The notes beneath the pieces are model-generated. The model made no database searches. It saw only the letters and a list, made by a program, of their open reading frames with translations, and had not been told where the DNA came from. From an uncultured Acidobacteriota bacterium (GTDB lineage: Bacteria; Acidobacteriota; Thermoanaerobaculia; Multivoradales; UBA5704), in NCBI GenBank assembly GCA_963761805.1, contig CAVXIV010000023.1:609378-673377 (forward strand): a DNA stretch of 64,000 nt, in the 5' to 3' direction. The translations under genes were made by a program, and so were the position numbers. Positions 1 through 62,984 of this stretch are shown here, piece by piece; positions within the stretch are counted from its first letter, which is position 1; the number at the start of each line of letters is the position of its first letter.

Positions 1-148
1 CGACCCCTCCCTCCCACCCACACCGGGAGAGGGGAGAGGTTAGTCAGGGTTTGTCTGCTTCCTCTTCTGGCTAACTTCTCCCTCCTCTCCCGGTGTGGCG
101 TGGGAGGGAGGGGTCGGGAGAGGAGGGCCGGGGAGGTGAGGGCCTCGA
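1..148. repeat. GC-rich palindromic repeat element: two inverted arms, left arm cut by the window edge
   Basis: Positions 1-45 (cgacccctccctccc..caccgggagagggg) are nearly the reverse complement of 71-117 (ctaacttctccc..cccggtg..gggagggaggggtcg). Positions 118-148 continue the arm (ggccggggaggtgagggcc). Same family as the copies at 49276, 56291 and 60682. Confidence 0.65.
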
Positions 149-10300: not shown

Positions 10301-10670
10301 AGACCTGGTTGTCGTAGCCCCACCGCGGGTTCAGGGGGCCGCGGGCGGGATACCAGGTGAGCTGCTTCGGGACGCCGCCGGCCGCCGGGATGACGTAGAC
10401 CTGCTCGTCGCCGTCGTACTGGCCGGTGAAGGCGATCCATTTGCCGTCCGGCGAGAACTGGGCGAACATCTCGAGCCCGGGATGGGCGGTCAGCCGGGTC
10501 GCCCCGCCGCCGTCGGCGGAGGCGGTCCACAGGTCGCCGGCGTAGGTGAAGACGACCTTGTCCTCGTGGATGTCCGGGAACCGGAGCAGCTTGGTCTGGG
10601 CGGAAGCCTCCCCGGCGGCGGCGGCGAGAGCCGCCGCGAGACAGAGAAGAGAGCGTCGGACGCGTTGCAT
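7362..10670 (-). pseudogene. tricorn protease homolog (beta-propeller/PDZ/S41 peptidase), reading frame broken at least 11 times
   Basis: Typical N-terminus: LLRFPDIHEDKVVFTYAGDLWTASADGGGATRLTAHPG..FSPDGKWIAFTGQYDGDEQVY. Recognisable tricorn sequence hops between all three minus frames near 10180, 9975, 9915, 9790, 9535, 9075, 8950, 8655, 8165, 7790 and 7545. The true C-terminus (..[30 protein letters not shown]) ends at 7362. Confidence 0.8.
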
Positions 10671-10804: not shown

Positions 10805-11124
10805 CTACGCGTCTACGCGTCCGACTACGCGCCAGAGCAAAAATCTATGCGCCGCAGATTTCATCTTTGCGCCTCAGGAAAAATCTACGCGTCTCAGATT
10901 TTGTCTACGCGTCTCAGCAAAGGACTACGCGCCAGAGAAAACGACTACGCGTCTCCGGATATCGCTTTGCGCCTCCGCAATCGTCTACGCGTCAGGGATT
11001 TCGACTATGCGTCTCGGATTTCATCTACGCGCCACGGCGAATGTCTACGCGCCTCGGAATTCGTCTATGCGTCTCCGCAAGCTCCTATGCGCCGCCGGAT
11101 TTCGCTACGCGTCAGGTCCGCTCA
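10805..11124. repeat. tandem array of 16 in-phase 20-bp units with a conserved CTAYGCG core
   Basis: Core ctacgcg / ctatgcg / ctttgcg occurs at 10805, 10825, 10845 ... 11105 with exact 20-bp spacing, plus one out-of-phase core at 10813. Unit consensus is roughly CTAYGCGYCNCNGNAWWTCNT. The stretch is AT-richer than its surroundings and non-coding, since 20 is not a multiple of 3. Confidence 0.85.
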
Positions 11125-15063: not shown

Positions 15064-16842
15064 ATGTCGAAGCCAGAGAACGACGTTCTCAATGTAGCTA
15101 CGGACGCCGCCGCGACGGCAGATGTATCCGGACTGAGCCGCCGCAAGTTCCTCGGCGGCTTGGGCGGCGCCGCGGCGGCCACGATGGCCGCAGGTGTCGT
15201 GGGCGGTGTCGCCCTCGAGCCGCTGATGGACGCGGCGGCCACGGCCGAGGCGGCCCCTGGAGGGCCCTCCGTCGCGAACCACCGGAGCCAGCGCGCCTGG
15301 CAGATCCGCAAGGACATGGCGGACTACTGGAAGGGCCAGAGCCCCGTGACCCACCTGACCAACGGCGACGAGGCCCGCTACCCGAGCAGGATCGGGAACT
15401 GGTCCAAGGGCATGCCGCACAACCAGTTCGGCGAGGTGGACCCGGCCGCGTACAACAGCTTCCTGAAGGCCATCGATTCCGGCAAGCCGGAGGACTACGA
15501 TGCCATCATTCTCGGATCCCCGGGAAAAAAGCTGACGAACCCGCAATCCGGCCTCGCCTTCGACATGCAGGGCATTGATTGCCAGGCCGCGACCGTGCCG
15601 CCGCCGCCGGCCCTGGCCAGCCGGGAGCAGGCCAGCGAGATCATCGAGCACTACTGGCAGGCCCTGCTGCGCGACACGAACTTCCTCGACTATGGTTCCT
15701 CGGCGGATGCGACGGCGGCCTGCGCCGACCTGAACGCCTTCGGCGCCGACTTCAAGGGCGTCAGGATCGGTGGTGTGGTCACGCCTCAGACCCTGTTCCG
15801 CGACATCGGCCCCGGCATGACCGTCGGACCCTACATCTCCCAGTTCATGTGGTTGAACACGCCCTACGGCGCCGAGCAGATCGACCGCAGGACGTGGACC
15901 CTGGCTCCCGGCTCCGATCACCTGCAGACCTTCGACGACTACCTGGCGTCGCAGCACGGGCTGGTGCCCCAGCCGGCGCAGTTCCTCGGTCTGCGGCGTT
16001 ACATCATCAATGGCCGCGACCTCGCCGAGTGGGTGCACATCGACGTCCTCTACCAGGCCTACTTCAATGCCATGCTGATCATGGCGACCCCGCCGGACAA
16101 TTCCGATAATGGCGGCGGCCTGGGCGTGGGGCTCAATCCCGGCAACCCGTACATCGGCAATCCGACGCAGGCCCCCTTCACCACGTTCGGTCCCCCGGGC
16201 ATCGCGACGCTCCTCACCGAGGTCTCATCGCGCTGCCTCAAGGCCACCTGGCACAAGAAGTTTCAGATCCACCGGCGGCTCCGTCCCGAACATCACGCCG
16301 GACGCATCGAGGTGCACCTCAACCAGTCGCCGGGCCGCTACAACGGCGCCCTGCACCCGGACACCTTCAACGCCACCGCGCTCGACCGCATCGAGACCCA
16401 TAACGGCGGCAGCTACCTGCTGCCGATCGCCTTCCCGGAGGGCTGCCCGACGCATCCCTCCTACACCGCCGGCCATGCCACGGTGGCGGGCGCCTGCGTC
16501 ACGCTGCTGAAGGCGATGTTCGACACCGAGAATCACATCATCCAGAACCCGGTGGTTCCGACCCCTGACGGCTCGGCCCTGGTGCCGTACGTCGGCCCGG
16601 CGCTGACGGTCGAGGGCGAGCTCAACAAGGTGGCCTCCAACGTCGCCACCGGCCGCAATATCGCGGGAATGCATTGGCGGTCCGACGCCTGGGCATCCAT
16701 GCGTCTCGGCCAGAAGGTGGCGATCAGCCTCCTGCAAGAGCAGACGAAGATCCACAACGAGCCCGACCCCTTCTACACGTTCCGCGGCTTCGACGGCGAG
16801 CGGATCGTGGTCAGGAACGGCGGCGTGACGATCACCCCGTAG
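15064..16842 (+). CDS. Tat-exported vanadium-dependent haloperoxidase / PAP2-superfamily protein
   Basis: Twin-arginine signal (SRRKFLGGLGGAAAATMAAG). PAP2/VHPO motifs: KKFQIHRRLRPE (Kx6RP), HPSYTAGHAT (PSGH-like), GRNIAGMHWRSD (R..H..D). Confidence 0.8.
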   Translation: MSKPENDVLNVATDAAATADVSGLSRRKFLGGLGGAAAATMAAGVVGGVALEPLMDAAATAEAAPGGPSVANHRSQRAWQIRKDMADYWKGQSPVTHLTNGDEARYPSRIGNWSKGMPHNQFGEVDPAAYNSFLKAIDSGKPEDYDAIILGSPGKKLTNPQSGLAFDMQGIDCQAATVPPPPALASREQASEIIEHYWQALLRDTNFLDYGSSADATAACADLNAFGADFKGVRIGGVVTPQTLFRDIGPGMTVGPYISQFMWLNTPYGAEQIDRRTWTLAPGSDHLQTFDDYLASQHGLVPQPAQFLGLRRYIINGRDLAEWVHIDVLYQAYFNAMLIMATPPDNSDNGGGLGVGLNPGNPYIGNPTQAPFTTFGPPGIATLLTEVSSRCLKATWHKKFQIHRRLRPEHHAGRIEVHLNQSPGRYNGALHPDTFNATALDRIETHNGGSYLLPIAFPEGCPTHPSYTAGHATVAGACVTLLKAMFDTENHIIQNPVVPTPDGSALVPYVGPALTVEGELNKVASNVATGRNIAGMHWRSDAWASMRLGQKVAISLLQEQTKIHNEPDPFYTFRGFDGERIVVRNGGVTITP

Positions 16843-18042: not shown

Positions 18043-19650
18043 ATGTTTCTCACTGTTACTACGGATGCCGCCGCGACGGCAGATGTATCCGGGTTGAGCC
18101 ACCGCAAGCTCCTTGGCGGCCGGGGCGGCGCCGCCCCGGCCAGGCAGCTCCGCAAGGACGCGGCGGACTACTGGAAGGGCCAGGGGACCCTCCAGCACGC
18201 GGTCAACGGCGACGAGACTCGCTATGCCAACCGCATCGGCAACTACTCGAAGGGCCTGCCGCACAACAGCTTCGGCGAGGTTGCTCCAAACGCCTACCAG
18301 AGCTTGCTCGACGCCATCGGCTCGGGTGATCCGGCCGGTTGCGACGCCATCATCCTGGACGGCCCCAACAAGCTGACCAGTCCCCAGGGCGGCCTGGCGT
18401 TCGACCCCAAGGGGGCGGACTCTCAAGCCTTCGCGGTGCCCGCTCCGCCGCCGATCGCCAGCGCCGAGATGGCCAGCGAGGGTGTCGAGCACTACTGGAT
18501 GTCGCTGATTCGCGACGTCAACTTCCTCGACTACGGCAGCAACGCGGACGTGGCCGCGGCCTGCGCCGACCTCAACCAGTTCGGCGCCGATTTCAAGGGC
18601 CCCAAGGTGGGCGGCCAGGTGACGCCGCAGACCCTGTTCCGCGACGTCCTGCCCGGCTGCACGGTCGGCCCCTGCATCTCGCAGCTCATGTGGATGAACA
18701 CCCCGGTCGGCACGGAATACGTCGAGCGCCGCCAGCGCACGCTGCTGCCCGACACCAACCATCTGACCAACTACGGCAACTGGCTGGCGGCCCAGAACGG
18801 CTACTTCCCGGAGAACGCCGCCGCGGACTTCGATCCGGTCCGGCGCTACATCCGCAACGGCCGCGACCTCGCCCAGTGGGTCCACATCGACGTGCTGTTC
18901 CAGGCCTACTTCAACGCCTGCCTGATCCTCGGCACGCCGCCGGACTCCGAGCCGCTCTCCGGCGGCATCGGCGCGCCGTCGAACCCGGGAAACCCCTCTA
19001 TCGGCAACCCGGCGCAGACCGGCTTCACCACCTTCGGCCGGCCGCACTTCAAGGCCCTGCTGTGCGAAGTGGCCTCGCGCGCCCTCAAGGTGACCTGGCA
19101 CAAGAAATGGCAGGTCAGCCGGCGCCTGCGTCCCGAAAACTGGGGAGGCCTGGTGCACAACCAGATCGTGCACAACCGCTACCCCGGCGTCATCGACTCC
19201 CGGCAACTCAACTCGCCGGCGGTCGCCCGGACCTTCACCAAGTACGGCACCTACCTGCTGCCGCAGGTCTACCCGGAAGGCTGCTCGACGCATCCGTCCT
19301 ACACCGCGGGCCACGCGACCGTCGCCGGCGCCTGCGTGACGATCCTCAAGGCGCTGTTCGATGAGAGCTTCGTGATCCCGGACCCGGTCGTGCCGACGCC
19401 GGACGGCCTGTCGCTGGTGCCCTACACCGGCCCGGCGCTGACCGTGGGCGGCGAGCTCAACAAGCTGGCCTCCAACGTGGCCACCGGCCGCAACATCGCC
19501 GGCGTGCACTGGCGGTCGGACGCCATCGAGTCGATGCGGGTCGGCGAGGCGCTCGCCATCAGCATCCTCCGCGACCAGCGGAAGCTCTACAACGACAACT
19601 TCGGCGTCTTCACCTTCACCAAGTTCGACGGTACGTCAACTACCGTCTAA
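18043..19650 (+). CDS. vanadium-dependent haloperoxidase / PAP2-superfamily paralog lacking a functional Tat signal
   Basis: Collinear with 15064-16842 and keeps the same catalytic motifs (KKWQVSRRLRPE, HPSYTAGHAT, GRNIAGVHWRSD). The N-terminus reads SHRKLLGGRGGAAPARQLRKD, so the RR pair is lost and the h-region and cleavage region (roughly 40 aa) are deleted. Confidence 0.8.
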   Translation: MFLTVTTDAAATADVSGLSHRKLLGGRGGAAPARQLRKDAADYWKGQGTLQHAVNGDETRYANRIGNYSKGLPHNSFGEVAPNAYQSLLDAIGSGDPAGCDAIILDGPNKLTSPQGGLAFDPKGADSQAFAVPAPPPIASAEMASEGVEHYWMSLIRDVNFLDYGSNADVAAACADLNQFGADFKGPKVGGQVTPQTLFRDVLPGCTVGPCISQLMWMNTPVGTEYVERRQRTLLPDTNHLTNYGNWLAAQNGYFPENAAADFDPVRRYIRNGRDLAQWVHIDVLFQAYFNACLILGTPPDSEPLSGGIGAPSNPGNPSIGNPAQTGFTTFGRPHFKALLCEVASRALKVTWHKKWQVSRRLRPENWGGLVHNQIVHNRYPGVIDSRQLNSPAVARTFTKYGTYLLPQVYPEGCSTHPSYTAGHATVAGACVTILKALFDESFVIPDPVVPTPDGLSLVPYTGPALTVGGELNKLASNVATGRNIAGVHWRSDAIESMRVGEALAISILRDQRKLYNDNFGVFTFTKFDGTSTTV

Positions 19651-19709: not shown

Positions 19710-19803
19710 AGTTTCCCCGGTTGACGTGCCCATCGGCGCTGCGCTATGTAGCTCCGGGATGTCGTACTTCCCTTGCCCACGCTTCAATCTCGGGAGAGAG
19801 CTC

Positions 19804-22800
19804 ATGCGCAGACCCATGTTCCTCGCCATCGTCGCCGCGTTCGCGCTGGCGCCCGGAGCGCTCCGGGCCGCCGACGCGGTGAACCCCGACCTGCTCGCCG
19901 GCCTCTCGGCCCGCTCGATCGGCCCCGCCGCCATGAGCGGCCGCGTGGCCGACGTCGACGTCGTCGAGTCGAACCCCGACATCATGTATATCGGGACCGC
20001 CACCGGCGGCGTCTGGAAGACCGTCAACGGCGGTCTCACCTGGGACCCCATCTTCGACGACCAGCCCGTGCACTCCATCGGCGCGGTCGCCGTCTTCCAG
20101 CCCAACCCGGACGTGGTCTGGGTGGGCTCGGGCGAAGGCAACGTCCGCAACAGCGTCTCGATCGGCAACGGCGTCTACCGCTCGCTGGACGGCGGCAAGA
20201 CCTGGTCCCACCTGGGGCTGGAGAAGACGGAGCGCATCCATCGCGTCGTCCTCCATCCCACGGACCCGAACGTCGCCTGGGTGGCCGCCCTCGGCCAGCT
20301 CTGGGGGGAGAACCCGGAGCGCGGCGTCTTCAAGACCACGGACGGCGGCAAGACCTGGCGGAAGGTGCTGTACGTCGACGACAAGACCGGCGCCGCCGAC
20401 CTGATGATCGACCCGAGCAATCCGAACAAGCTCTTCGCCGCCATGTGGCAGTTCCGGCGCTGGCCCTGGATCTTCAACTCGGGCGGACCCGGCTCCGGCC
20501 TCCACGTCTCCCATGACGGCGGCGAGACCTGGAAGCGGATCACCGAGGACGACGGCCTGCCCAAGGGGAACCTCGGGCGCATCGGCCTCGCCATCTCGCG
20601 CTCCAACCCGAGCATCGTCTATGCCCTGGTGGAGAACGCCGACAAGAGCCAGATCCTGCGCTCCGCCGACGGCGGCCAGACCTGGAAGAAGGTGAGCGAG
20701 GACACCCGCGCCACCGAGCGGCCGTTCTACTACGCCGACCTCAAGGTCGATCCCGTCTGGCCGAACCGCGTCTACAGCCTCACCGCCCGCCTGCTGGTCT
20801 CCGAGGACAGCGCGCAAGACTTCGACAACCTGGGCCGCTCGCGGGAGATCCACGGCGACTACCACGACCTCTGGATCAACCCCCGGGACCCCGAGCACAT
20901 CGTCGCCGCCAACGACGGCGGTCTGGGCATCAGCCGCGACCGCGGCGAGACCTGGATGTTCGTGGCCAACCTGCCGCTGGCGCAGTTCTACCACGTGGCC
21001 GTGGACATGGACCGGCCGTACAACGTCTACGGCGGCCTGCAGGACAACGGCTCCTGGCGGGGTCCCAGCTCGCTCTTCGAGCAGGGGGGCGGCATCCGCA
21101 ATTCCCGCTGGGACGTGGTCGGCGGCGGCGACGGCTTCGACACGCGCCCCGATCCCGAGGACTCGATGGCGGGCTACTCCATGTCGCAGGGCGGCGAGCT
21201 GACCCGCTGGAACCTGCAGACGCGGGAGTTCAAGAGCATCAAGCCGCCGGAGGTAGCTCCCGGCGACAAGAGCCGCGAGCGGCTCCGCTTCAACTGGAAC
21301 GCCGGCCTGGCCCAGGACCCCTTCGAGCCGGGCACGATCTATTACGGCAGCCAGTACGTCCACAAGTCCACGGACCGGGGCGATTCCTGGACGATCATCA
21401 GCCCCGACCTGACCACCGACAACGCCGAGTGGCAGCAGCAGTCGAAAAGCGGCGGCCTGACCCTGGACGTCACCGCCGCCGAGAACCACACGACGATCAT
21501 CGCCATCGCCCCCAGCGCGCTGCAGAAGGGCGTGCTCTGGGTGGGCACGGACGACGGCCGCCTGCACGTGACCCGCGACGGCGGCCAGACCTGGACGAGC
21601 GTCGAGAAGAACGTCAAGGGCGTGCCGGACAACACCTGGATCCCCCACATCACGCCCTCCAGGCACGACGCCGCCTCGGCGTTCGTGGTCTTCGACAACC
21701 ACCGCCGGTCGGACTTCGCGCCCTACGTCTACCGCACCGATGACTGGGGGAAGACCTGGAAGAGCCTGGCGACCAAGGACCTCCGGGGCTACGCGCTGTC
21801 CGTCGAGCAGGACCCCGTGGACAAGGATCTCCTGTTCCTGGGCACGGAGTTCGGCCTCTGGGCCTCGCTGGACGGCGGCGCGCGCTGGATGAAGTGGAAG
21901 CACGGTGTGCCCACGGCCTCGGTGATGGACATGGTGATCCATCCCCGCGATCACGACCTGGTGCTCGGCACCCACGGCCGGGCGGTCTACGTGATCGACG
22001 ACATCTCGCCGCTACGCGACCTCTCGGCGGAGACGATGGCGAAGCCCGTCCATGTCCATCCGATTCCGCCCGCGGTGATGTACCGCGCCCTGCGCAGCCG
22101 GGGCGTGCGGGGCGGCGGCGCCGGCGAATACCAGGGCGAGAACCGCGACTACGGCGCCCTGATCACCTTCTCGCTGAACGCGCCGAACCTGCCGTTGCCG
22201 GACAAGGAACAGGAGCGGGCGCGCAAGGAGGCCGAACGCGCCGCCGAACGGGCCCGGGCCCAGTCGGTGGTCACCCAGCAGTCCGGTGTGATCAAGGAGG
22301 ACGCCCCGGCGTCGGAGGCCGCTCCCCAGCCCGAGGAGGAAGGGAGGAGGGGCGGCAAGGGGCCGCAGGCGGAGATCAAGATCAGCGACGCCTCCGGCAA
22401 GGTGATCCGGACGATCAAGACGGACGTCCACCGGGGCCTCAACCGGGTGGTCTGGGACCTCGGCCGCGACGATTTCCGCTCGCCGCCGAGCGAAGGCCGG
22501 GGCTTCCCGCGGGACGGCTCCGGCCCCTCGGTCCGTCCCGGCACCTACACCGTGGCCGTCAAGTACGGCAAGGAGGAGGCGCGAAGCACGGTGGAAGTGA
22601 AGGCCGACCAGGATCTCGCCGGCAACGACTGGCAGGCCTGGGACGCCGAGGTGAACCGGGTGGGCCAGCTCCAGAACGCCGTGGTGGAGGCCATCGAACG
22701 GGTCGCCGCCACCAAGGCGGACGTGGACGTGGTGCTCTCCAAGCTCGACGCCCGCGCCAAGGCGCGCACGCGGGGAGGAGAGAGCGGCGGCGAGGATCCG

Positions 22801-23130
22801 GACAAGGACCTGAAGAAGGCCGCCAAGGATCTCCAGAAGCGGCTCGGCGAAGTGGAGCGGAAGCTCTGGGTGCCGCCGGCCACCAAGGGGATCGTGGAGG
22901 ACCGGACGGCGCAGAACCGCATGGGCCTCATGCGCCGCTTCGTGGGCTCCTCCTGGACCGCCCCGACCGGCACGGCCAAGGCCCACCTCGACAACGCCGA
23001 GGCCGAAGTCCGCGAGGTCCTGGCCGAGGTCAACAAGCTCTACGCCGAGGACGTCCCCGCCTTCCGCCAGAAGGTGGCCGCGGCGCAGATCGACCTCCTG
23101 GGGGCGCAGGGACCGATCGAGGTGAAGTAG
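19804..23130 (+). CDS. secreted BNR/Asp-box repeat protein (sortilin/VPS10-like beta-propeller)
   Basis: Signal peptide MRRPMFLAIVAAFALAPGALRA. Repeated SxDxGxTW boxes: SLDGGKTW, TTDGGKTW, SHDGGETW, SADGGQTW, SRDRGETW, TRDGGQTW, TDDWGKTW. Confidence 0.8.
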   Translation: MRRPMFLAIVAAFALAPGALRAADAVNPDLLAGLSARSIGPAAMSGRVADVDVVESNPDIMYIGTATGGVWKTVNGGLTWDPIFDDQPVHSIGAVAVFQPNPDVVWVGSGEGNVRNSVSIGNGVYRSLDGGKTWSHLGLEKTERIHRVVLHPTDPNVAWVAALGQLWGENPERGVFKTTDGGKTWRKVLYVDDKTGAADLMIDPSNPNKLFAAMWQFRRWPWIFNSGGPGSGLHVSHDGGETWKRITEDDGLPKGNLGRIGLAISRSNPSIVYALVENADKSQILRSADGGQTWKKVSEDTRATERPFYYADLKVDPVWPNRVYSLTARLLVSEDSAQDFDNLGRSREIHGDYHDLWINPRDPEHIVAANDGGLGISRDRGETWMFVANLPLAQFYHVAVDMDRPYNVYGGLQDNGSWRGPSSLFEQGGGIRNSRWDVVGGGDGFDTRPDPEDSMAGYSMSQGGELTRWNLQTREFKSIKPPEVAPGDKSRERLRFNWNAGLAQDPFEPGTIYYGSQYVHKSTDRGDSWTIISPDLTTDNAEWQQQSKSGGLTLDVTAAENHTTIIAIAPSALQKGVLWVGTDDGRLHVTRDGGQTWTSVEKNVKGVPDNTWIPHITPSRHDAASAFVVFDNHRRSDFAPYVYRTDDWGKTWKSLATKDLRGYALSVEQDPVDKDLLFLGTEFGLWASLDGGARWMKWKHGVPTASVMDMVIHPRDHDLVLGTHGRAVYVIDDISPLRDLSAETMAKPVHVHPIPPAVMYRALRSRGVRGGGAGEYQGENRDYGALITFSLNAPNLPLPDKEQERARKEAERAAERARAQSVVTQQSGVIKEDAPASEAAPQPEEEGRRGGKGPQAEIKISDASGKVIRTIKTDVHRGLNRVVWDLGRDDFRSPPSEGRGFPRDGSGPSVRPGTYTVAVKYGKEEARSTVEVKADQDLAGNDWQAWDAEVNRVGQLQNAVVEAIERVAATKADVDVVLSKLDARAKARTRGGESGGEDPDKDLKKAAKDLQKRLGEVERKLWVPPATKGIVEDRTAQNRMGLMRRFVGSSWTAPTGTAKAHLDNAEAEVREVLAEVNKLYAEDVPAFRQKVAAAQIDLLGAQGPIEVK

Positions 23131-26416: not shown

Positions 26417-27401
26417 TTGAAACGCCTGCGCATCGGCCTCTGCTACGACCTCAAGTCGGACTATCTCGCCGCGGGTTTCCCGCCCGAGGACGTGATGGAG
26501 TTCGACGAGGAGGAAACCATTCAATCCCTCGCCGGCGGCGCTGGAGGAGATCGGTCACGAGACCGAGCGGGTGGGGCGCGGCCTCGAGCTGGCGCGACGG
26601 CTCGCGGCGGGGGAGCGCTGGGACCTCGTCTTCAACGTCGCCGAAGGCGTGCGCGGACGCTCGCGGGAGGCCCAGGTGCCGGCCCTCTGCGAGCTGTTCG
26701 ATCAGCCCTACACCTTCTCGGACCCGCTGACCTGCGCCGTCACGCTCGACAAGCCGCTGACCAAGCGGCTGGTGCGCGACGACGGCATCGCCACGCCGCC
26801 CTTCGCCGTGGTGGAACGGCCGGAGCAGGCGGATGATCTATCTCTGGAATTTCCACTTTTCGTGAAGCCCGTGGCCGAGGGGAGCAGCAAGGGCGTGACC
26901 GGCCGTTCGCGGGTGTCGAGCCGAGAGGAGCTGCGGGAGGCCTGCGCCGAGCTGATCCGCACCTTCCGCCAGCCGGTGCTCGTCGAGTCCTACCTGCCGG
27001 GCCGCGAGATCACGGTGGGGATCGTGGGCAACGACGGCGACGCCGGTGCGGTGGGCGCCATGGAGGTCACCTTCCGGGAAGGCATGGACGGGGACTACAC
27101 CGCCGTCAACAAGCAGGACTTCGAGAACCGGGTCACCTACCGTCTGGTGGACGGACCGCTCGGCGCCAAGGTCCGCGCGATGGCCCTCTCGACCTTCCGC
27201 CTCCTCTCGTGCCGGGACGTGGCGCGGGTCGATTTCCGCTGCGACGCCGCGGACGAGCCGCATTTCCTCGAAGTGAATCCGCTCCCCGGCCTTCATCCCA
27301 CGTACTCGGACCTTCCCATCCTGTCCACCCTGGCGGGAATCTCCTACACCGATCTGCTCGGCCGCATTCTCGAAGCCTCCATCCGCCGGTGGGGCCTGTG
27401 A
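26417..27401 (+). pseudogene. D-Ala-D-Ala-ligase-family ATP-grasp enzyme 1, apparent 1-nt frameshift near 26535-26545
   Basis: Starts right after the kamA stop (LKRLRIGLCYDLKSDY..EEETIQSLA). Continues in the next frame (LEEIGHETERVGRGLEL..FPLFVKPVAEGSSKGV..EVNPLPGL). Confidence 0.7.
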
Positions 27402-28375
27402 ACCTGAGCGCCATCTCCCGCGTCCTCATCGCCCACAATCCGACGGATGAGGGGGACGACCCCTCGACGGCGGACGTGCTGGCGCAGGTCGGTCTGGTGA
27501 GGTCGGGCCTGGAAGAGCTGGAGATCCCCTGCCGGGCCGTGGCGATTCCCGACTGGATGCCCTGGCTTCATCTCGCTCCGGAACCCGGCGCGGTCGTCTT
27601 CAATCTCATGGAAGCGCCCCCCGGGGTGCCGCACGTCCATCCGGACGCGGCGGCCGTCCTGGAGCTGATGGGCATTCCCTTCACCGGCGCCTCCGCGGCG
27701 GCGCTCTCCCTGACCACGGACAAGCTGGCGACGAGGGCGCTTCTGGCGTCCGAGGGATTGCCGATCGCGCCCGGCGGCCGTCTCGATCCGGACTGTCCCG
27801 GCTTGCTCCACCGGATCCCCGGCCCGTGGATCGTCAAGCCCGCGAAGGAGGACGCGTCCCTGGGGCTCGAAGGCGATCCGGTCTGCGCCACGCGCGAGGC
27901 CGTCCTCGCCCGCGCCTGGAGCCTGGCCGCGCGCTTCCCGGGTCAGCCCCTGGTCGTGGAGACCTTCCTCCCCGGCCGCGAGCTGAACGTCTCTCTCCTG
28001 GCGGGCGAGGTCCTGCCGGTGGCGGAGATCGTCTTCGAAGATTTCCCCGAGGGTATGTCGCGGGTCGTGGGCTACGAAGCGAAATGGCGGGAGGACTCCT
28101 TCGAGTACATTCACACCGTGCGCCGCTTCCCGGAGGGCGATGAGGACGCGGACTTACTGGAGAATGTCCAAAAGCTTGCGCTGAAAGCGTGGCGGATCTG
28201 CGGGTTGCGGGGCTACGCCCGGGTCGATCTCCGTCTGGATCACAACGGCGAGCCGCATATCCTGGAAGTGAACGCCAATCCCTGCCTGGCTCCGGACGCC
28301 GGCTTCATGGCCGCCGCCGGACAGGCCGGATTGACGGCTGGCGAGGTTGTCCGGAAGATTCTCGCTGAGGTGTAG
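27398..28375 (+). CDS. D-Ala-D-Ala-ligase-family ATP-grasp enzyme 2
   Basis: GTG overlaps the preceding stop (GTGA). ATP-grasp hallmarks: WIVKPAKEDASLGL, ARVDLRLDHNGEPHILEVNANP. Confidence 0.8.
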   Translation: MNLSAISRVLIAHNPTDEGDDPSTADVLAQVGLVRSGLEELEIPCRAVAIPDWMPWLHLAPEPGAVVFNLMEAPPGVPHVHPDAAAVLELMGIPFTGASAAALSLTTDKLATRALLASEGLPIAPGGRLDPDCPGLLHRIPGPWIVKPAKEDASLGLEGDPVCATREAVLARAWSLAARFPGQPLVVETFLPGRELNVSLLAGEVLPVAEIVFEDFPEGMSRVVGYEAKWREDSFEYIHTVRRFPEGDEDADLLENVQKLALKAWRICGLRGYARVDLRLDHNGEPHILEVNANPCLAPDAGFMAAAGQAGLTAGEVVRKILAEV

Positions 28376-48015: not shown

Positions 48016-49355
48016 ATGCGTTCCGTTCTCTGGGGACTCTACCAGCTCGCGGCCGGGGCCGCCCTGCTCCTTGCCGGGCCGTTCCTGCTCGCCCGGCGGG
48101 GGAGCCACTACCTCCCCACGCTCTCCGGACGGCTTGGCAACGGCCGGCGTAAGCCCCCGGGGCGCTCTCTGGATCCACGCCGTCTCCGTGGGCGAGGTCG
48201 GGGTGGCCGCCACCCTGGCGCGCGCCCTGCCGCCCGACCTCCCCCTGCTGGTGACCACCGTCACCCCCACCGGGCAGGAGCGGGCCCGGGCCGCCTTCGC
48301 CAACCGCGCCGAGGTCGCCTATCTTCCCTTCGACCTCGGCTTCGCCGTCGGACGCTTCTTCCGCCGCTACGAGCCCCGCGCCCTGGTGCTGGTCGAGGGG
48401 GACTACTGGCCGCTGGTCCTGCGCGAGGCGCGCCGCCGGGGGCTCCCCGTCGCCGTGGTCAACGGCCGGGTGGGCGACCGCAGCTTTCCGCCGCATGCGC
48501 CGCCTGCGCCCGCTGCTCGGCCCCCTCTTCTCCGGAGTGGACCGCTTCGGCGTCCAGAGCCGGCAGGACCACGACCGCCTGGTCAGCCTGGGCGTCGATC
48601 CCGGCCGCGTCACCGTCACCGGCAACCTCAAGTACGAGACCCCCGAGCCGCCCGCCAGGCCCGAGCTGGAGGACGCCCTGCGGCGCCTCGCCGGCGGCCG
48701 GCCGATCCTCCTCGCCGGCTCGACCATGGCCGGGGAGGAGGAACAGGTGCTCGACGCCTTCCAGGAGATCGGCGGCGGCGAGCGGGCGATGCTGGTCGTC
48801 GCGCCCCGTCACCCTGAGCGCTGGGACGAGGTCGCCGCCCTCCTGCGCTCCCGGGGGATCGGCTTCGTCCGGCGAAGCGCGCTGCCGGAGCCGGGAAAGC
48901 CCGCCGTGATCCTCCTCGACAGCCTGGGCGAGCTGGCCGGCCTCTACCGGCTGGCCGCGGCGGCCTTCATCGGCGGTACCCTGGTCCCCACCGGCGGCCA
49001 CAACCCCCTGGAGCCGGCCCGCTTCGGGGTGCCGCTGGCGGTCGGTCCCTCGATGCACAACTTCCGGGAGATGGCCGAGGCCTTCGACCGCGCCGGCGCC
49101 TGGCGGCGGGTGGCGGACGCGCGGGGGCTCGCGGCGGTCTGGCGCGAGTGGCTGGACGATCCCGCCGCCGCCCGGGAGACCGGCGGGCGCGCCCTGCGGC
49201 TGGTCGAGGAGAACCGGGGGGCTTTGGCGCGGACGGTGGAGATGCTGGCGGGAGTGTTGCCGGTCCCCCGCCCGAGCCCTCACCCCCTGGCCCCCTCTCC
49301 CGACCCCTCCCTCCCTCCCTCACCGGGAGAGGGGGAAAAAGAAGTCAGGAAATGA
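48016..49355 (+). pseudogene. waaA: 3-deoxy-D-manno-octulosonic acid (Kdo) transferase, two frameshifts (~48140, ~48490); C-terminal tail encoded by a repeat element
   Basis: LWIHAVSVGEVGVAATLA, VTTVTPTG, LVEGDYWP, then RLRPLLGPLFSGVDRFGVQS..LLAGSTMAGEE..GGHNPLEPA, spread over three frames. The last ~25 aa (SPHPLAPSPDPSLPPSPGEGEK) come from the repeat. Confidence 0.8.
49276..49335. repeat. GC-rich palindromic repeat element, single arm (short variant)
   Basis: gccctcaccccctggccccctctcccgacccctccctccctccctcaccgggagaggggg. Internal 10-bp stem cccctctccc / gggagagggg. Confidence 0.7.
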
Positions 49356-55566: not shown

Positions 55567-56376
55567 TTGAGCGACCGGCTGCCGCCCGCCGTCGTCCTGG
55601 TCCGCCCCCGGGAAGAGGGCAACGTCGGGTCCACCGCGCGGGCGATGGCCAACATGGGCCTGGACCGCCTGATCCTGGTGGAGCCCGCCGCGCCCTTCGG
55701 CAAGGTGGCCGTCGCCTTCGCCGTGGGGGCGAAGCGGGTGCTCGACGGCGCCGTCCGCGCCGCCAGCCTGGAGGAGGCCCTGGCCCCCTTCCGGCGGGTG
55801 GTGGGGACCACCTCGACGCGGGACCGGCGGCTGGGCGTCCCCGTCCTCGATCCCAGGGAGCTCCCCGGCTGGCTGGCTCAGGACCCGCCGGACACCCCGA
55901 CCGCCCTGGTCTTCGGCCCCGAGGTCGGGGGGCTGACCAACGAGGAGCTGGCCCTGGCGAGCGCGGTCGTCACCATCCCCTGCTCGCCGGTCCAGCCCAC
56001 CCTGAACCTCGGCCAGGCCGTGCTGATCCTCGCCTACGAGCTGTTCCAGTCCCGGGGCGAAGCCCTCGTCCCGTCCGCCGGGGCCGAGGCTCCCGCCACC
56101 GCCGCCGAGCTGGACGGCCTGCTGGGCCACGCCGCCGGCGTGATGCGGCGGGTCGGCTTCGCCCGCGACTCTTCCTTCGAAGGGGTGCTGCGCGACCTGC
56201 GGCGCCTGGCCGCGAGGGCGGCGCCGTCGAGCCGGGACGTGGCGATCCTGCGGGGAATCTGCCGGCGGACGGAGGGGGCGTTGGGGAAGAACCCTCACCC
56301 CCTGGCCCGGTCGATCTCACATGGGCCCGACCCCTCCCTCCCTCCCTCACCGGGAGAGGGGGAAGAACCGGGCTAG
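55567..56376 (+). CDS. SpoU/TrmH-TrmJ family RNA 2'-O-methyltransferase; C-terminal tail encoded by a repeat element
   Basis: VLVRPREEGNVGSTARAMANMGL, LVFGPEVGGLTNEEL, IPCSPVQPTLNLGQAVLILAYE. The last ~25 aa (HPLARSISHGPDPSLPPSPGEGEEPG) are repeat-derived. Non-ATG start is assumed. Confidence 0.8.
   Translation: MSDRLPPAVVLVRPREEGNVGSTARAMANMGLDRLILVEPAAPFGKVAVAFAVGAKRVLDGAVRAASLEEALAPFRRVVGTTSTRDRRLGVPVLDPRELPGWLAQDPPDTPTALVFGPEVGGLTNEELALASAVVTIPCSPVQPTLNLGQAVLILAYELFQSRGEALVPSAGAEAPATAAELDGLLGHAAGVMRRVGFARDSSFEGVLRDLRRLAARAAPSSRDVAILRGICRRTEGALGKNPHPLARSISHGPDPSLPPSPGEGEEPG
56291..56362. repeat. GC-rich palindromic repeat element, single arm (long variant)
   Basis: accctcaccccctggcccggtcgatctcacatgggcccgacccctccctccctccctcaccgggagaggggg. 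Confidence 0.7.
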
Positions 56377-58732: not shown

Positions 58733-61700
58733 GTGAACCGTCCTTCAGCCACCGTCGCCGTCCTCGCCGAGAAGCCCGCCGTCGCCCGGGACATCGCCCG
58801 TGTGCTCGGCGCCACCGAGAGGGGAGAGGGGTTTCTCCGCGGCAACGGCTACGTCGTGACCTGGGCCATCGGCCATCTGGTCACCCTGGCGCAGCCCCAT
58901 GAGATCAATCCGGACTGGCGGAAGTGGCGGCGGGACCTCCTGCCGATGCTCCCCCGCGATTGGCCCCTCGTGGTCTCCGAGGAGACCCGGGCGCAGTTCG
59001 AGGCCGTCCGCAAGGTGATCAACGCGCCGGAGGTGGAGCGGGTCGTCTGCGCCACGGACGCCGGCCGCGAGGGCGAGCTGATCTTCCGCTACATCTACGA
59101 GGCCGCCGGCTGCCGCAAGCCGGTCCAGCGGCTGTGGATCTCCTCCCTCACGGCCAAGGCCATCCAGGACGGCTTCCGCAAGCTGCGGGACGGCCGCGAT
59201 CTCGACCCGTTGGCGGACGCCGCCCGGGGCCGCAGCCGGGCCGACTGGCTGGTGGGGATGAACCTCTCGCGGGCCTACGCCCTGGACTTCAACGAGGACC
59301 TCTCCGTCGGGCGCGTGCAGACCCCCACCCTCGCCATGGTGGTGGAAAGGGAGCTGGCCATCCGCGCCTTCGTGCCGGAGGACTACCTGGAAGTGATCGC
59401 GACCTTCTCGCCCACGACTTCCTCCACGGGCGGCGGCCCCGGCTACAAGGGCACCTGGTTCCGCGGCGAGACGCCCAATCCCGAGGCCAAGCGGATCAAG
59501 GCCGAGCCCGGCAAGGAGGGGGAAGACCTCCAGGAGGCGGCGCGGATCGTCCAGCGGGCGAAAAACGGCCAGGCCGCCGTCGAGTCCATCCGCTCCGAGA
59601 CCAAGCGGATGGCGCCGCCGCTGCTCTACGACCTCACCGAGCTGCAGCGGCACGCCAACCGCCTCTACGGCTTCAGCGCCAAGAAGACCCTGGGGCTCGC
59701 GCAGACCCTTTACGAGCAGAAGAAGCTCATCAGCTACCCCCGCACGGACAGCCGCCACCTCTCCACCGACGTGGCCGCCACCCTGGGGGAGATCGTGCGG
59801 GCCGTCCAGGGCCCCTATCTCGACAAGCTCGCTCCCGGCACCGGCGAGCGGCCCTTGAGCCGGCGCTTCGTGGACGACTCCAAGGTCACGGACCACCACG
59901 CCATCCTCCCCACCCCCACCTCGCCGGAGGGGGCCGGCCTCTCGGAGGACGAGCGGAAGATCTACGACCTGATCTGCCGGCGGCTCCTCTCCGCCTGGCA
60001 CGACGACCACGTCTGGTCCGTCACCACGGTGATCACCGCCATCACCAACCCGCCCCGCTCCGGGGTCGGCGAGCCGTTCGTGGACCGCTACCACAGCACC
60101 GGCACGCTGGTGGAGCAGGTAGGGTGGAAGGTGCTGGACGTCGAGAAGAAGAAAATGGACGCCAAGGACACCAGGGACGGCAAGGACAACAAGGACGACG
60201 AGGGCGCCGCCTCTCCCGAGGAGAACCAGGACCTGCCGCCGGGCCTCGCCCAGGGGCAGCGGCAGGAGGTGCTGGACGCCAGGGCCGTGGCCAAGCAGAC
60301 CCGTCCTCCCAAGCGCTTCACCGAAGCCACCCTGCTGACCGCCATGGAGACGGCGGGCAAGACCCTGGACGACAAGGAGCTCTCCGAGGCCATGAAGGAA
60401 TCCGGCCTGGGCACCCCCGCCACCCGCGCCGAGATCATCGAGACGCTGCTCCGGCGGGAGTACATCGTCCGCCAGGGCAAGTCCCTGGAGGCCACGGACA
60501 AGGGAATCCGGCTGATCGAGGTGGTGCATCCCCACGTGAAGAGCCCGGCCATGACCGGCCAGTGGGAGGCGCAGCTCCAGCGGATCCAGCGGGGGCAGGG
60601 GGAGCTTGGGGAGTTCATGCGGGGGATCGAGGAGTACGTGGAGGGGTGGTGGGCGGGAACGGCTCGGCGGCCCCCCCGCCCGGGCCCTCACCCCCAGCCC
60701 CTCTCCCGACCCCTCCCTCCCTCCCTCACCGGGAGAGGGGAGCCCGATCCGCGGGTGGAGCCTAGTCGGAATGGTGGCGCGCCGCCGACCCGCCTCCCTG
60801 CCCCTCTCCCCCTGGGAGAGGGGTCTCAAACCAGACTAACTTCTCCCCCTCTCCCGGTGAGGGAGGGAGGGAGGGGTCGGGCCCATGCGGGATCAACCGG
60901 GCCGGGGGGTGAGGGCCCGGGCGGGGGGCCGGCCAACGGCGGCTCTCTGGAAACCCTCCTCCACGACGTCTTCCGCCTCCAATCCTTCCGTCCCTACCAG
61001 GAAGCCGTCTGCCGCGCCGTGGTCGAGGGCCGGGACGTCCTCCTGGTGATGCCCACCGGCGCCGGCAAGTCGCTCTGCTACCAGCTCCCGGGACTGGCCC
61101 GGGGGGGCACGACGCTGGTGGTCTCGCCGCTCATCGCTCTCATGGAAGACCAGGTCGCCAAGCTCCGGGAGCTGGGTCTGCGGGCGGAGCGCATCCACTC
61201 GGGGCGGGACCGGTCGGCGTCGCGGCAGGTCTGCATCGACTACCTGGCGGGGCGGCTCGACTACCTCTTCATCGCCCCCGAGCGCCTGGCCGTACCCGGG
61301 TTCCCGGAGATGCTCGCCAAGCGCAAGCCCGCGCTCATCGCGGTGGACGAGGCGCACTGCATCTCGCAATGGGGGCACGACTTCCGCCCGGACTACCGTC
61401 TGCTGGGCCAGCGCCTCCCCATGCTGCGGCCGGCGCCCGTCATCGGCCTGACCGCCACGGCGACGCCGCAGGTGCAGGACGACATCGCCGCCCAGCTCGG
61501 CTTCGCGCGGGAGGGGCGGTTCATCCACGGCTTCCGGCGCACCAACATCGCCGTCGAGGTGGTGGAGATGCTCCCCTCGGAGCGCCGGCAGACCGTGCGG
61601 CGGGTCCTGGCGGACCGGGAGCGGCGGCCGGCCATCGTCTACGCGCCCACCCGCAAGGAGGCGGACGCGCTGGGTGCGGAGCTGGGCGAGGATTTCCCCT

Positions 61701-62984
61701 CCGCCGCCTACCACGCCGGCATGCCCACCGCCGCCCGCGACAAGGTCCAGGCGGCCTTCCTCGCCGGCCGGCTGGAGGTGATCGTCGCCACCATCGCCTT
61801 CGGCATGGGGGTGGACAAGCCGGACATCCGCACCGTCATCCACACGGGCCTGCCGGGCAGCGTCGAGGGCTACTACCAGGAGATCGGCCGCGCCGGCCGC
61901 GACGGCCAGCTCTCGCGGGCCATCCTCCTCTACTCCTTCGCCGACCGCCGGAACCACGAGTTCTTCCACGGCCGCGACTACCCCGAGGTGAACGAGTTGG
62001 AGCGGATCTTCCGCACCCTGCGGCAGGAGTCCCAGGTCGACGGCCAGCTCCGCAAGCGCCTCGCCATGGACGAGGAGCTCTTCGAGCGCGCCCTGGAGAA
62101 GCTCTGGATCCACGGCGGCGCCCTGGTGGACGCGGACGGCAACGTCGCCCTGGGAGCGGACGGCTGGCAGCGGACCTACCTGGCGCAGCGGGACCACAAG
62201 CTGGAACAGCTCGACCGGATGATCCGCTACGCCGAGTCCCACGGCTGCCGCATGCTCCACCTGGTGCGGCACTTCGGCGACCAGGAGGACTCGGGCGCGC
62301 CCTGCGGCCTGTGCGACGTCTGCGTTCCCGAGGACTGCTCGCTGCGCCGTTTCCGTCCTCTGAACAACCTGGAACGGGACCTGGCGGGCCGCATCGTGAC
62401 CTCGCTCCAGTGGCGGGACGGCCAGTCCACCGGCCAGCTCTACCGTGAGGTCTGCCCCGAGGAGCTGTCGGACCGCAAGTCCTTCGAGCGCCTCCTGGGC
62501 GGCATGGTCGCGGGCGGGCCTGCTGCGGCTGGCGGAGGACGCCTTCGAGAAGGAAGGGCGGACCATCCGCTTCCAGCGCGCCAGCCTGACTCCCGAAGGA
62601 AACCGGGCGGACGAGGCGGCCCTGGACCGGGTGGAGATGGCCGAGGAGATGCCGAAGACCCGCAAGAAGCGGGACCGCAAGGAAAGAGCCGAGAGGCCTG
62701 GGAAGGGGAAGTCCCGGCGGCCGGTCCAGGAGTCCTTCGTGCCCGAGTCGGCCCCTGATCCGGCCTCCCCCAGACTGGTCTTCGCCCTCAAGGAGTGGCG
62801 CCGTCAGGAAGCCAATCGCCGGCACATCCCCGCCTTCCGCATCCTCACCGACCGCGCCCTGACCGCCCTCGCCGCCGCCCGCCCCCGCGACGAGACCGAC
62901 CTCCTCAACGTCCCCGGGATCGGCCCCTCGATCGTGCAGAAGTATGGCCGGGAGATCCTGGGGATCGTATCTACTACTGGCTGA
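58733..62984 (+). CDS. topB/recQ: single ORF encoding DNA topoisomerase III (type IA), then a repeat-derived linker, then RecQ helicase; one frameshift near 62512 before the HRDC region
   Basis: Topo IA part: Toprim VAVLAEKPAVARDIA, DAGREGELIFRY, catalytic Tyr context ISYPRTDSRHL. RecQ part from ~60940: FRPYQEAV, MPTGAGKSLCYQLP, DEAHCISQWGHDFRPDY, LTATAT, YHAGM, GMGVDKPD, QEIGRAGRDG, Cys cluster CRM..CGLCDVC. HRDC (FALKEWRRQEANRRHIPAFRILTDRAL) is in the frame of ORF 62445-62984. No stop codon lies between the two enzymes. Confidence 0.75.
60682..60918. repeat. GC-rich palindromic repeat element, composite copy (two inverted arms plus an inner hairpin) inside the topB-recQ ORF
   Basis: Left arm 60682-60741 (short variant). 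Inner palindrome cccctctccccctgggagagggg at ~60801-60823. Right arm 60836-60918 is the reverse complement of the long variant (ctaacttctccccctctcccggtgagggaggg..gggcccatgcgggatcaaccgggcc..gtgagggccc). Confidence 0.75.

What the first reader, a model, noticed from the sequence alone, without database searches (positions are those of the whole stretch)
58733..62984. Topoisomerase III and RecQ helicase encoded as one continuous ORF, bridged by a translated repeat element
Seen: a complete type IA topoisomerase (Toprim, DxDxEG-like DAGREGE, catalytic Tyr in SYPRTDSRHL) runs without any stop codon into a complete RecQ. RecQ has helicase motifs I-VI, a Zn-binding Cys cluster, and RQC/HRDC after one frameshift at ~62512. 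The ~85-aa connector (60660-60935) is the in-frame translation of a palindromic repeat element also found at three other loci. RecQ has no in-frame ATG after the element. Only a GTG inside the element (ccgGTGagg, ~60856) could serve as an independent start. Established: RecQ-family helicases and Topo III act as a functional pair (E. coli RecQ/TopB, Sgs1-Top3, BLM-TOP3A). Reverse gyrase is a helicase/topo IA fusion with the opposite domain order. Inference: this is either a covalent 'dissolvasome' (topo IA N-terminal, RecQ C-terminal) created by insertion of the repeat into the topB-recQ junction, or two genes falsely merged by an indel in a window that clearly has many frame problems.
Basis: partly seen in the sequence, partly recalled or inferred. 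Interest (0 to 1): 0.75.

Follow-up and report, generated by a model that had tools for sequence, protein, structure and literature searches.

The report
Natural topoisomerase III–RecQ fusion gene
This is a real, evolutionarily conserved gene that joins a DNA-untangling enzyme (topoisomerase III) and its helicase partner (RecQ) into one protein; the flexible linker between them is here made of a translated palindromic repeat, and no paper describing the fusion was found.

Summary
ORF 58733-62758 (1341 aa) runs from a complete Topo III core into a complete RecQ core. The HRDC domain lies one frame over, after a single extra G at 62510. Removing that G gives a 1416-aa ORF ending at 62984, 91% identical end to end to a Thermoanaerobaculia orthologue.

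The fusion is neither an artefact nor a product of the repeat. At least 120 protein clusters share the architecture. In 65 of 68 species-level loci (Acidobacteriota, Myxococcota, Oligoflexus and others) the two modules are in the same frame with no stop. Their linkers are 22-274 aa, unalignable, and always a multiple of 3 nt. The three exceptions are all MFD-labelled MAGs.

The 270-nt palindrome (60666-60934) is a dispersed REP/MITE-like element. It entered an existing disordered linker in one Thermoanaerobaculia sublineage. It is open in only one + strand frame. In the closest orthologue part of it is read in a different frame, restored by compensating indels.

Most likely function (inferred): a single-chain RecQ-Topo III "dissolvasome". 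No paper describing such a fusion was found. Whether the 62510 frameshift is real cannot be decided here.

The parts
58733..62984 (+). Complete Topo III-RecQ fusion gene. It reads as one 1416-aa ORF if the extra G at 62510 is removed. As given, ORF 58733-62758 (1341 aa) plus ORF 62445-62984.
   Evidence: 91.2% identity over the full length to P0002 (1411 aa)
58757..59146 (+). Toprim domain (aa 9-138), with E13 and the D109-x-G-R-E-G-E acidic cluster
   Evidence: PF01751, 39.5 bits; invariant columns
59207..60619 (+). Type IA topoisomerase core (aa 159-629) with catalytic Tyr335 (SYPRTDSRHL)
   Evidence: PF01131, 362.7 bits; NF005829 and TIGR01056 above cut-off on the orthologue
60653..60937 (+). 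Inter-module linker (about 95 aa, Pro/Gly/Ser/Arg-rich, no predicted secondary structure)
60666..60934 (.). Palindromic REP/MITE-like element made of two inverted ~70-nt units around a ~105-nt centre that has its own small hairpin (60802-60822). It is translated in frame.
   Evidence: (MFE -230.6 kcal/mol, z -10.7)
60989..61477 (+). RecQ helicase lobe 1 (DEAD; motif I PTGAGKS, motif II DEAH)
   Evidence: (E. coli RecQ 1OYW, E 1.3e-86)
61589..61906 (+). RecQ helicase lobe 2 (Helicase_C; motif VI QEIGRAGRDG)
62183..62323 (+). RecQ zinc-binding subdomain (C1172, C1191, C1194, C1197, all invariant)
62510..62510 (+). Single extra G relative to the orthologue, causing a +1 frameshift that puts the last ~157 codons (including HRDC) out of frame
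62775..62969 (+). HRDC domain (in the frame of ORF 62445-62984); stop TGA at 62982-62984
1..145 (.). Another full palindromic copy of the repeat (cut by the window start), intergenic, upstream of an ORF starting at 179
49259..49349 (+). Single repeat unit forming the C-terminal tail of ORF 48495-49355, just before an lpxK-like start
56292..56363 (+). Single repeat unit (subtype with a 12-nt insert, the same subtype as the right arm of the linker copy) forming the C-terminal tail of ORF 55567-56376
   Evidence: (I1, 94%)

Best explanation
**What it is.** The locus encodes one polypeptide of about 1416 aa, a member of a conserved bacterial family. A complete Topo III (TopB-type, type IA) core is tethered through a variable, disordered linker to a complete RecQ helicase (SF2 core, Zn-binding subdomain, HRDC).

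**Shown here.**
- The fusion is ancestral to a large clade (Acidobacteriota, Myxococcota and others) and its reading frame is maintained by selection.
- In the lineage of this window a dispersed palindromic REP/MITE-like repeat inserted into the linker. It is tolerated because it is stop-free in one frame and the linker sequence is unconstrained.

**Inferred mechanism.** The protein is a single-chain version of the RecQ-Topo III 'dissolvasome'. RecQ uses ATP to unwind or branch-migrate DNA and hands single-stranded regions to the tethered Topo III. Topo III passes strands to decatenate converging forks, precatenanes or double Holliday junctions. The tether replaces the protein-protein contacts (SSB, RMI1) that couple the separate enzymes elsewhere.

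**The frameshift.** The 1-nt frameshift at 62510 is more likely an assembly error than biology, but this is undecided.
For: **Architecture is conserved.** At least 120 clusters of 1218-1570 aa carry DEAD+Helicase_C+RecQ_Zn_bind+HRDC behind a Topoisom_bac core, at 64-87% identity; Toprim is missing only from three N-terminally shorter entries (P0054, P0062, P0064). About 50 clusters at 50% identity are longer than 1100 aa and match both halves of a junction-spanning query.

**Frame is maintained.**
- 65 of 68 loci are in the same frame with 0 stops. Linkers are 66-822 nt and all are multiples of 3.
- Only 31 and 29 of the 65 linkers are open in the other two frames. The summed log10 probability of being open by chance is -31.9.
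- The three exceptions are all MFD-labelled MAGs.

**The two modules diverge in parallel.** Spearman rho is 0.49, p = 3e-5.

**Catalytic residues are invariant**.

**Module identities.** The Topo module passes the NCBIfam topB and NF005829 cut-offs, and the RecQ module passes recQ_fam. The closest solved structure to the RecQ module is E. coli RecQ.

**The repeat is secondary.**
- It is absent from the linkers of more distant fused genes.
- It sits at the orthologous place in L001, with indels of 25, 1, 2, 4, 12 and 15 nt that net to a multiple of 3. The left arm is read in a different frame there (PLSRPLPPSLTGRGE against APSPDPSLPPPPGEGEE).
- It is open in only one of the three + strand frames.

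**RecQ-Topo III cooperation is established knowledge.** See PMC7614492, PMC2647321 and the PMC7245102 abstract.
Against: - No biochemical, transcript or peptide evidence is available. The function is inferred from the modules.
- As assembled, the window's copy loses HRDC to a frameshift, so in this genome the protein might be truncated or decaying. A neighbouring tricorn-like gene is also broken.
- In-frame GTGs at 60755 and 60857 could in principle give a separate RecQ.
- An RQC winged helix was not detected.
- The AlphaFold model was too poor (pLDDT 53, pTM 0.31) to show docking between the modules.
Confidence: 0.8

Rival explanations
1. Assembly artefact: topB and recQ are separate adjacent genes, merged here by an indel in a GC-rich repeat that is hard to sequence.
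For: The window has at least one frameshift in this same gene and a multiply broken tricorn-like gene. Three relatives, all MFD-labelled MAGs, are out of frame in the linker.
Against: 65 of 68 loci from many assemblies and sequencing projects are in frame with 0 stops, and every linker length is a multiple of 3. There are at least 120 fused protein clusters. No start codon with a plausible ribosome-binding site precedes RecQ.
Confidence: 0.03
2. The fusion was created in this lineage when the palindromic repeat inserted between a topB stop codon and a recQ start codon.
For: The whole connector is repeat-derived in the window. Stand-alone RecQ genes of the same subfamily exist.
Against: Fused genes with unrelated, repeat-free linkers occur in deeper Thermoanaerobaculia branches, other Acidobacteriota, Myxococcota and Oligoflexus. 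The Topo and RecQ modules diverge in parallel. Close relatives carry only half an element, or other repeats, at the same place.
Confidence: 0.04
3. The copy in this genome is a decaying pseudogene: a true frameshift removes HRDC, and the repeat insertion is part of the erosion.
For: The frameshift at 62510. Another gene in the window carries several frame breaks.
Against: There is only one lesion in 4.25 kb. Identity to the orthologue is 91% with all catalytic residues intact. The repeat is shared in frame with the orthologue and other relatives. Four neighbouring genes are collinear and intact.
Confidence: 0.12
4. The fusion is a reverse-gyrase-like enzyme: tightly coupled helicase and topoisomerase modules that introduce directional (positive) supercoils.
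For: Like reverse gyrase, it has an SF2 helicase and a type IA topoisomerase in one chain (PMC2504306 and PMC7245102 abstracts).
Against: The domain order is opposite. The linker is disordered, 22-274 aa long and unconserved, which argues for tethering rather than a rigid interface. The reverse gyrase model TIGR01054 scores 114 bits against a cut-off of 471.7. The helicase is a full RecQ with Zn-binding and HRDC domains.
Confidence: 0.07

Closest known systems
RecQ-Topo III partnership (E. coli RecQ/TopB/SSB; yeast Sgs1-Top3-Rmi1; human BLM-TOP3A-RMI1/2 'dissolvasome')
   Same: The same two enzyme families are involved. The Topo module passes the topB models and the RecQ module passes recQ_fam, with E. 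coli RecQ as the nearest solved structure. The expected chemistry is helicase-fed single-strand passage for decatenation and dissolution.
   Different: Here the two partners are one polypeptide joined by a flexible tether. In all characterised systems they are separate proteins coupled by SSB or RMI1. No RQC winged helix was detectable.
Reverse gyrase (SF2 helicase-like module fused N-terminal to a type IA topoisomerase)
   Same: It is a natural covalent fusion of an SF2 helicase and a type IA topoisomerase.
   Different: The order is opposite (topoisomerase first). The helicase is a complete, canonical RecQ. The linker is long and variable rather than an integrated latch or interface. The relatives recovered are uncultured MAGs of taxa such as Bryobacterales, Terriglobales and Myxococcota rather than hyperthermophile genomes; growth temperature was not tested. 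The TIGR01054 score is far below its cut-off. The PNAS 2020 abstract (PMC7245102) calls the reverse gyrase fusion unique to hyperthermophiles.
Rickettsia palindromic elements (RPEs) and other MITEs inserted in frame into protein-coding genes
   Same: It is a dispersed palindromic repeat that sits inside an ORF, is translated and does not destroy the gene. PMC10969869 describes RPEs making in-frame translational fusions.
   Different: This element is GC-rich and from an unrelated phylum. Most other copies lie at gene 3' ends or between genes. It occupies an inter-domain linker rather than a loop of a folded domain. The same DNA is read in different frames in sister species. No target-site duplication could be defined.
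REP/BIME elements of enterobacteria
   Same: It is built from short hairpin-forming units of about 70 nt that occur singly or as inverted pairs, mostly at gene ends.
   Different: REPs are by definition extragenic, and this copy is translated. No RAYT transposase or family relationship was tested.

Membership tests
Type IA topoisomerase, Topo III (TopB) subfamily | Toprim domain with a conserved Glu and an acidic DxD cluster | tested here: met
   PF01751 scores 39.5 bits against a cut-off of 23.1. E13, D109, E113 and E115 are invariant.
Type IA topoisomerase, Topo III (TopB) subfamily | Topoisomerase core with an active-site tyrosine | tested here: met
   PF01131 scores 362.7 bits. Y335 in SYPRTDSRH is invariant.
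Type IA topoisomerase, Topo III (TopB) subfamily | Scores above the curated cut-off of the topB models rather than the topA models | tested here: met
   On orthologue P0002, NF005829 scores 668 (cut-off 597) and TIGR01056 scores 573.8 (cut-off 515.75). The topA models are far below their cut-offs.
Type IA topoisomerase, Topo III (TopB) subfamily | Decatenation loop and decatenase activity | not tested
   A charged insertion at aa ~470-500 (KKKMDAKDTRDGKDNKDDE) was seen but not mapped onto the E. coli Topo III structure.
RecQ family helicase | SF2 helicase core with RecQ-type motifs I-VI | tested here: met
   DEAD scores 89.4 bits and Helicase_C 74.8 bits. TIGR00614 recQ_fam scores 383 against a cut-off of 219.8. 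E. coli RecQ 1OYW matches at E 1.3e-86.
RecQ family helicase | RecQ-specific four-Cys zinc-binding subdomain | tested here: met
   PF16124 scores 40.1 bits against a cut-off of 25. C1172, C1191, C1194 and C1197 are invariant.
RecQ family helicase | RQC winged-helix domain | tested here: inconclusive
   No PF09382 hit even at E<=10 on the orthologue's C-terminal 378 aa. The alignment to 1OYW ends at the Zn motif. A divergent winged helix is not excluded.
RecQ family helicase | HRDC domain | tested here: met
   PF00570 scores 74.5 bits in ORF 62445-62984. In the window it is out of frame unless the G at 62510 is removed.
RecQ family helicase | Equivalog of E. coli RecQ (TIGR01389) | tested here: not met
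   It scores 469.4 bits against a cut-off of 640.2. This is a RecQ-family member, not the canonical RecQ equivalog.
Reverse gyrase | Helicase-like module N-terminal and topoisomerase IA module C-terminal | tested here: not met
   The order is Toprim/Topo (aa 9-629) followed by the helicase (aa 753-1058).
Reverse gyrase | Score above the cut-off of the reverse gyrase model | tested here: not met
   TIGR01054 scores 114.1 bits against a cut-off of 471.7.
Reverse gyrase | ATP-dependent positive supercoiling | not testable with these tools
   This needs a biochemical assay.
Dispersed palindromic repeat (REP/BIME- or MITE/RPE-like) | Multiple dispersed copies in the genome and its relatives | tested here: met
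   Five units in 64 kb against 0 expected. 27 metagenome contigs carry an exact unit.
Dispersed palindromic repeat (REP/BIME- or MITE/RPE-like) | Strong hairpin or palindrome potential | tested here: met
   MFE -230.6 kcal/mol, z -10.7. The inner arms are 100% complementary. The arms co-vary between the window and L001.
Dispersed palindromic repeat (REP/BIME- or MITE/RPE-like) | Terminal inverted repeats flanked by a target-site duplication (MITE definition) | tested here: inconclusive
   Inverted terminal units are present. Only a weak AACGGC direct repeat is seen at both flanks, and the boundaries could not be fixed.
Dispersed palindromic repeat (REP/BIME- or MITE/RPE-like) | In-frame insertion that leaves the host ORF open (RPE-like) | tested here: met
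   It is open in the host frame only; the other two + strand frames have stops at 60837/60858 and 60763/60910. The same holds in L001.

The most novel reading that the evidence does not exclude
This gene belongs to a widespread but never characterised class of bacterial single-chain RecQ-Topo III machines. Covalent coupling might give an ATP-driven strand-passage activity that the separate enzymes lack: processive dissolution or decatenation without SSB or RMI1, or even directional supercoiling with the domain order opposite to reverse gyrase. In addition, the linker's DNA is kept as a near-perfect palindrome even though it is read in different frames in sister species. It could therefore act at the nucleic-acid level, for example as an mRNA hairpin that sets the ratio of Topo-only to full-length product.
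Probability: 0.2. Interest if true: 0.8.

Novelty: new variant of a known kind. Interest (0 to 1): 0.6.

Why it matters
RecQ helicases and type IA topoisomerases work as pairs from bacteria to humans (BLM-TOP3A). How the two activities are physically coupled is still debated.

Reverse gyrase is treated in the literature as the unique natural fusion of the two. The PMC7245102 abstract says so explicitly.

A second, independent fusion would change that picture. It has the opposite domain order, a full RecQ and a simple flexible tether, and it is conserved across Acidobacteriota and Myxococcota. It gives three things:
- A natural 'Rosetta-stone' confirmation of the partnership in bacteria.
- A minimal one-protein system for studying dissolution and decatenation without accessory factors.
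- A direct test of whether tethering alone is enough for reverse-gyrase-like coupling.

The linker also shows how disordered inter-domain segments can grow by capturing palindromic repeats in frame.

Tried and rejected
- **Literature.** Eight of the nine full-text searches asked for a natural Topo III-RecQ fusion (one search was on Rickettsia palindromic elements). Two reviews were also read. None describes one. Absence from this library is not proof of absence.
- **Source of the window.** An exact look-up of the 1341-aa product found no record.
- **Rfam.** Only sub-threshold miRNA noise matched the palindrome.
- **Structure.** An AlphaFold2 model of aa 1-1200 with a 34-sequence alignment reached mean pLDDT 53 and pTM 0.31. 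This is too poor for inter-module contacts or a fold search, so none was run. It only agrees that aa 639-736 lack secondary structure.
- **Frame survey.** A GC3 frame plot of the whole window could not separate gene boundaries from frameshifts without homology. Only the tricorn-like gene was confirmed as broken.
- **Cluster names.** Names of distant fused representatives are only automatic labels such as 'DNA topoisomerase-3' or 'RecQ family helicase'.
- **Independent RecQ start.** In-frame GTGs at 60755 and 60857 exist. 60857 has no Shine-Dalgarno-like sequence upstream and 60755 has only a distant GAGGGGAG. Conservation of the fused frame makes a separate start unnecessary.
- **NCBIfam.** There is no dedicated model for the fusion.


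Full report
**Observation.** The ORF list shows a single open frame from GTG 58733 to 62758 (1341 aa) on the + strand.
- Pfam places Toprim (aa 9-138) and the type IA core (aa 159-629, 362.7 bits) in its first half. DEAD (753-915), Helicase_C (953-1058) and the RecQ zinc-binding domain (1151-1197) are in its second half.
- HRDC (74.5 bits) lies in the overlapping ORF 62445-62984, in another frame.
- A DNA alignment with the closest relative shows the frame change is one extra G at 62510: GTC-G-CGGGCGGG against GTC-CGGGCGGG. Deleting it yields one 1416-aa ORF ending at TGA 62982-62984. That ORF is 91.2% identical to the 1411-aa orthologue P0002 over its whole length.
- The ~95-aa connector (60653-60937) coincides with a palindromic element at 60666-60934. 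Its inner arms are 100% complementary and its outer arms 89%. It folds into one long hairpin (MFE -230.6 kcal/mol, z -10.7).
- An RQC domain is not detectable.

**Is the fusion real?**
- A search with the 1341-aa product returned at least 120 protein clusters of 1218-1570 aa with the same Topoisom_bac+DEAD+Helicase_C+RecQ_Zn_bind+HRDC architecture at 64-87% identity; Toprim is absent only from three N-terminally shorter entries. Most are from Thermoanaerobaculia and other Acidobacteriota MAGs, and sources name them only 'DNA topoisomerase 3'.
- A scan of one genome per GTDB species gave 80 loci. Fused matches were found in Thermoanaerobaculia, Bryobacterales/Solibacteraceae, Terriglobales, Myxococcota (Myxococcales, Polyangia, Archangium) and Oligoflexus. 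A few MAGs carry other labels.
- In 68 loci the end of the Topo core and the start of RecQ are adjacent. In 65 of these they are in the same frame with no stop. The linkers are 66-822 nt and every one is a multiple of 3.
- Only 31 and 29 of these 65 linkers are open in the other two frames. The summed log10 chance of all being open in frame is -31.9.
- The three out-of-frame cases (L044, L055, L064) are all MFD-labelled MAGs. That fits an assembly indel error, but it was not tested here.
- A library-wide HMMER search with an 800-aa junction-spanning query found about 50 representatives at 50% identity that are longer than 1100 aa and match both halves. One is labelled Zetaproteobacteria.
- The two modules diverge in parallel across loci (rho 0.49, p 3e-5). 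The catalytic residues of both are invariant.
- The fusion is therefore a genuine, selected architecture, not a merge artefact.

**Role of the repeat.**
- Linkers across the family are P/A/S/G-rich, unalignable and 22-274 aa long, with a median of 47.
- Only a Thermoanaerobaculia subset carries this repeat: the window, L001, L002, L018, L033, and the proteins with 'PGPLSRPLPPSLTGRGG' or 'PPLPVREGGRGRERGPGGEG'. More distant Thermoanaerobaculia (L003, L005, L022, L057) and all other clades are fused without it. The fusion therefore predates the repeat.
- In the closest orthologue the element sits at the same place with near-identical arms. The two sequences differ by indels of 25, 1, 2, 4, 12 and 15 nt that net to a multiple of 3. 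Between the indels the same left arm is read in another frame: PLSRPLPPSLTGRGE against APSPDPSLPPPPGEGEE. The frame of the downstream RecQ is conserved, not the linker peptide.
- The element is open in only one of the three + strand frames.
- Its ~70-nt units occur singly or as inverted pairs. Two single units in the window form the C-terminal tails of unrelated ORFs.
- Exact units occur on 27 soil-type metagenome contigs, one of them again in a Topo-RecQ linker.
- Left and right arms of one element share variants that differ between genomes. The palindrome is therefore being maintained, either by concerted evolution or by selection.
- Many other homologues carry different translated GC-rich hairpin-like motifs in the linker. 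This linker seems to be a recurrent sink for such repeats.
- The closest precedent is in-frame insertion of Rickettsia palindromic elements (PMC10969869).

**Mechanism (inferred).**
- The Topo module passes the curated topB models: NF005829 scores 668 (cut-off 597) and TIGR01056 scores 573.8 (cut-off 515.75).
- The helicase passes recQ_fam (383 against 219.8) but not the E. coli RecQ equivalog (469 against 640).
- Its nearest solved structure is E. coli RecQ 1OYW (E 1.3e-86).
- E. coli Topo III cooperates with RecQ and SSB to resolve converging forks. Eukaryotic Top3 works with BLM or Sgs1 and RMI1 (PMC7614492; PMC2647321).
- The simplest reading is a tethered, single-chain dissolvasome. RecQ supplies ATP-driven unwinding or branch migration, and the linked Topo III performs strand passage.
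- A reverse-gyrase-like tight coupling is unlikely. The domain order is opposite, the linker is long, variable and disordered, and the rgy model score is far below its cut-off.

**What remains open.**
- Whether the G at 62510 is real cannot be decided without reads.
- Four neighbouring genes are collinear with the orthologous contig and intact.
- However, a tricorn-protease-like gene at 7430-10670 is split over at least five ORFs. Either the assembly is indel-prone or the genome carries pseudogenes.
- The AlphaFold model was too weak to say anything about inter-module contacts.
- Stand-alone RecQ genes of the same subfamily exist, so fission or an unfused ancestral state occurs elsewhere.

**Novelty.**
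- Eight full-text searches and two topoisomerase reviews gave no description of a natural Topo III-RecQ fusion.
- A 2020 PNAS abstract states that hyperthermophiles 'uniquely' fused these units as reverse gyrase.
- NCBIfam has no model for the fusion.
- The sequences are nevertheless already in public databases under automatic names, so this window is one more member of an unrecognised family.
- I rate it a new variant of a known kind (a helicase / type IA topoisomerase machine), of solid but not extreme interest.

Noticed in passing
window 10805-11113 (+): An intergenic array of 17 copies of the 9-mer CT(A/T)(C/T)GCG(C/T)C. Sixteen are at an exact 20-nt spacing, with variable 11-nt spacers. 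It lies between the 5' end of the tricorn-like gene and the next minus-strand coding stretch. It looks like a phased array of protein-binding sites (iteron-like).
   Followed up: partly
window 7430-10670 (-): A tricorn-protease-like gene (PD40 propeller repeats, Tricorn_C1, PDZ_Tricorn, Peptidase_S41) is split over at least 5 overlapping ORFs in different frames. It is either a pseudogene or a sign of indel-prone assembly.
   Followed up: partly
window 49259-49349 and 56292-56363: Single units of the same repeat are read through as the C-terminal tails of two unrelated ORFs. ORF 48495-49355 ends ...PSPDPSLPPSPGEGEKEVRK, and ORF 55567-56376 ends ...GPDPSLPPSPGEGEEPG. The repeat therefore often extends proteins at their 3' ends.
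   Followed up: partly
linkers of homologues P0006-P0119: Many Topo-RecQ linkers in related genomes contain other translated GC-rich hairpin-type repeat motifs, for example ALTSPALLSQPP, SPSPGGWGGDGRGGQGVRSPT, PPFEKGGLGGIS, VETRGY..PSLRD and VGEGLAPSRAG..EGASPSPT. This suggests repeated independent capture of different repeat families by this one linker.
   Followed up: partly
window 15086-16830 vs 18047-19631: A tandem paralogous duplication of about 1.7 kb at 71-86% identity, with start-to-start spacing of about 2.84 kb (families D2, D3, D6, D7, D11, D13, D14).
   Followed up: no
window 26571-28375 (+): Two overlapping ORFs in different frames (26571-27401 and 27209-28375) both hit the D-Ala-D-Ala ligase C-terminal domain. 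They are either tandem paralogues or another frame break.
   Followed up: no
window 20169-21889 (+): Eight copies of a 38-nt repeat sharing the core GACGGCGGC-AGACCTGG lie inside a long coding stretch at about 19771-23100 (families D5 and D8). It was not identified further.
   Followed up: no
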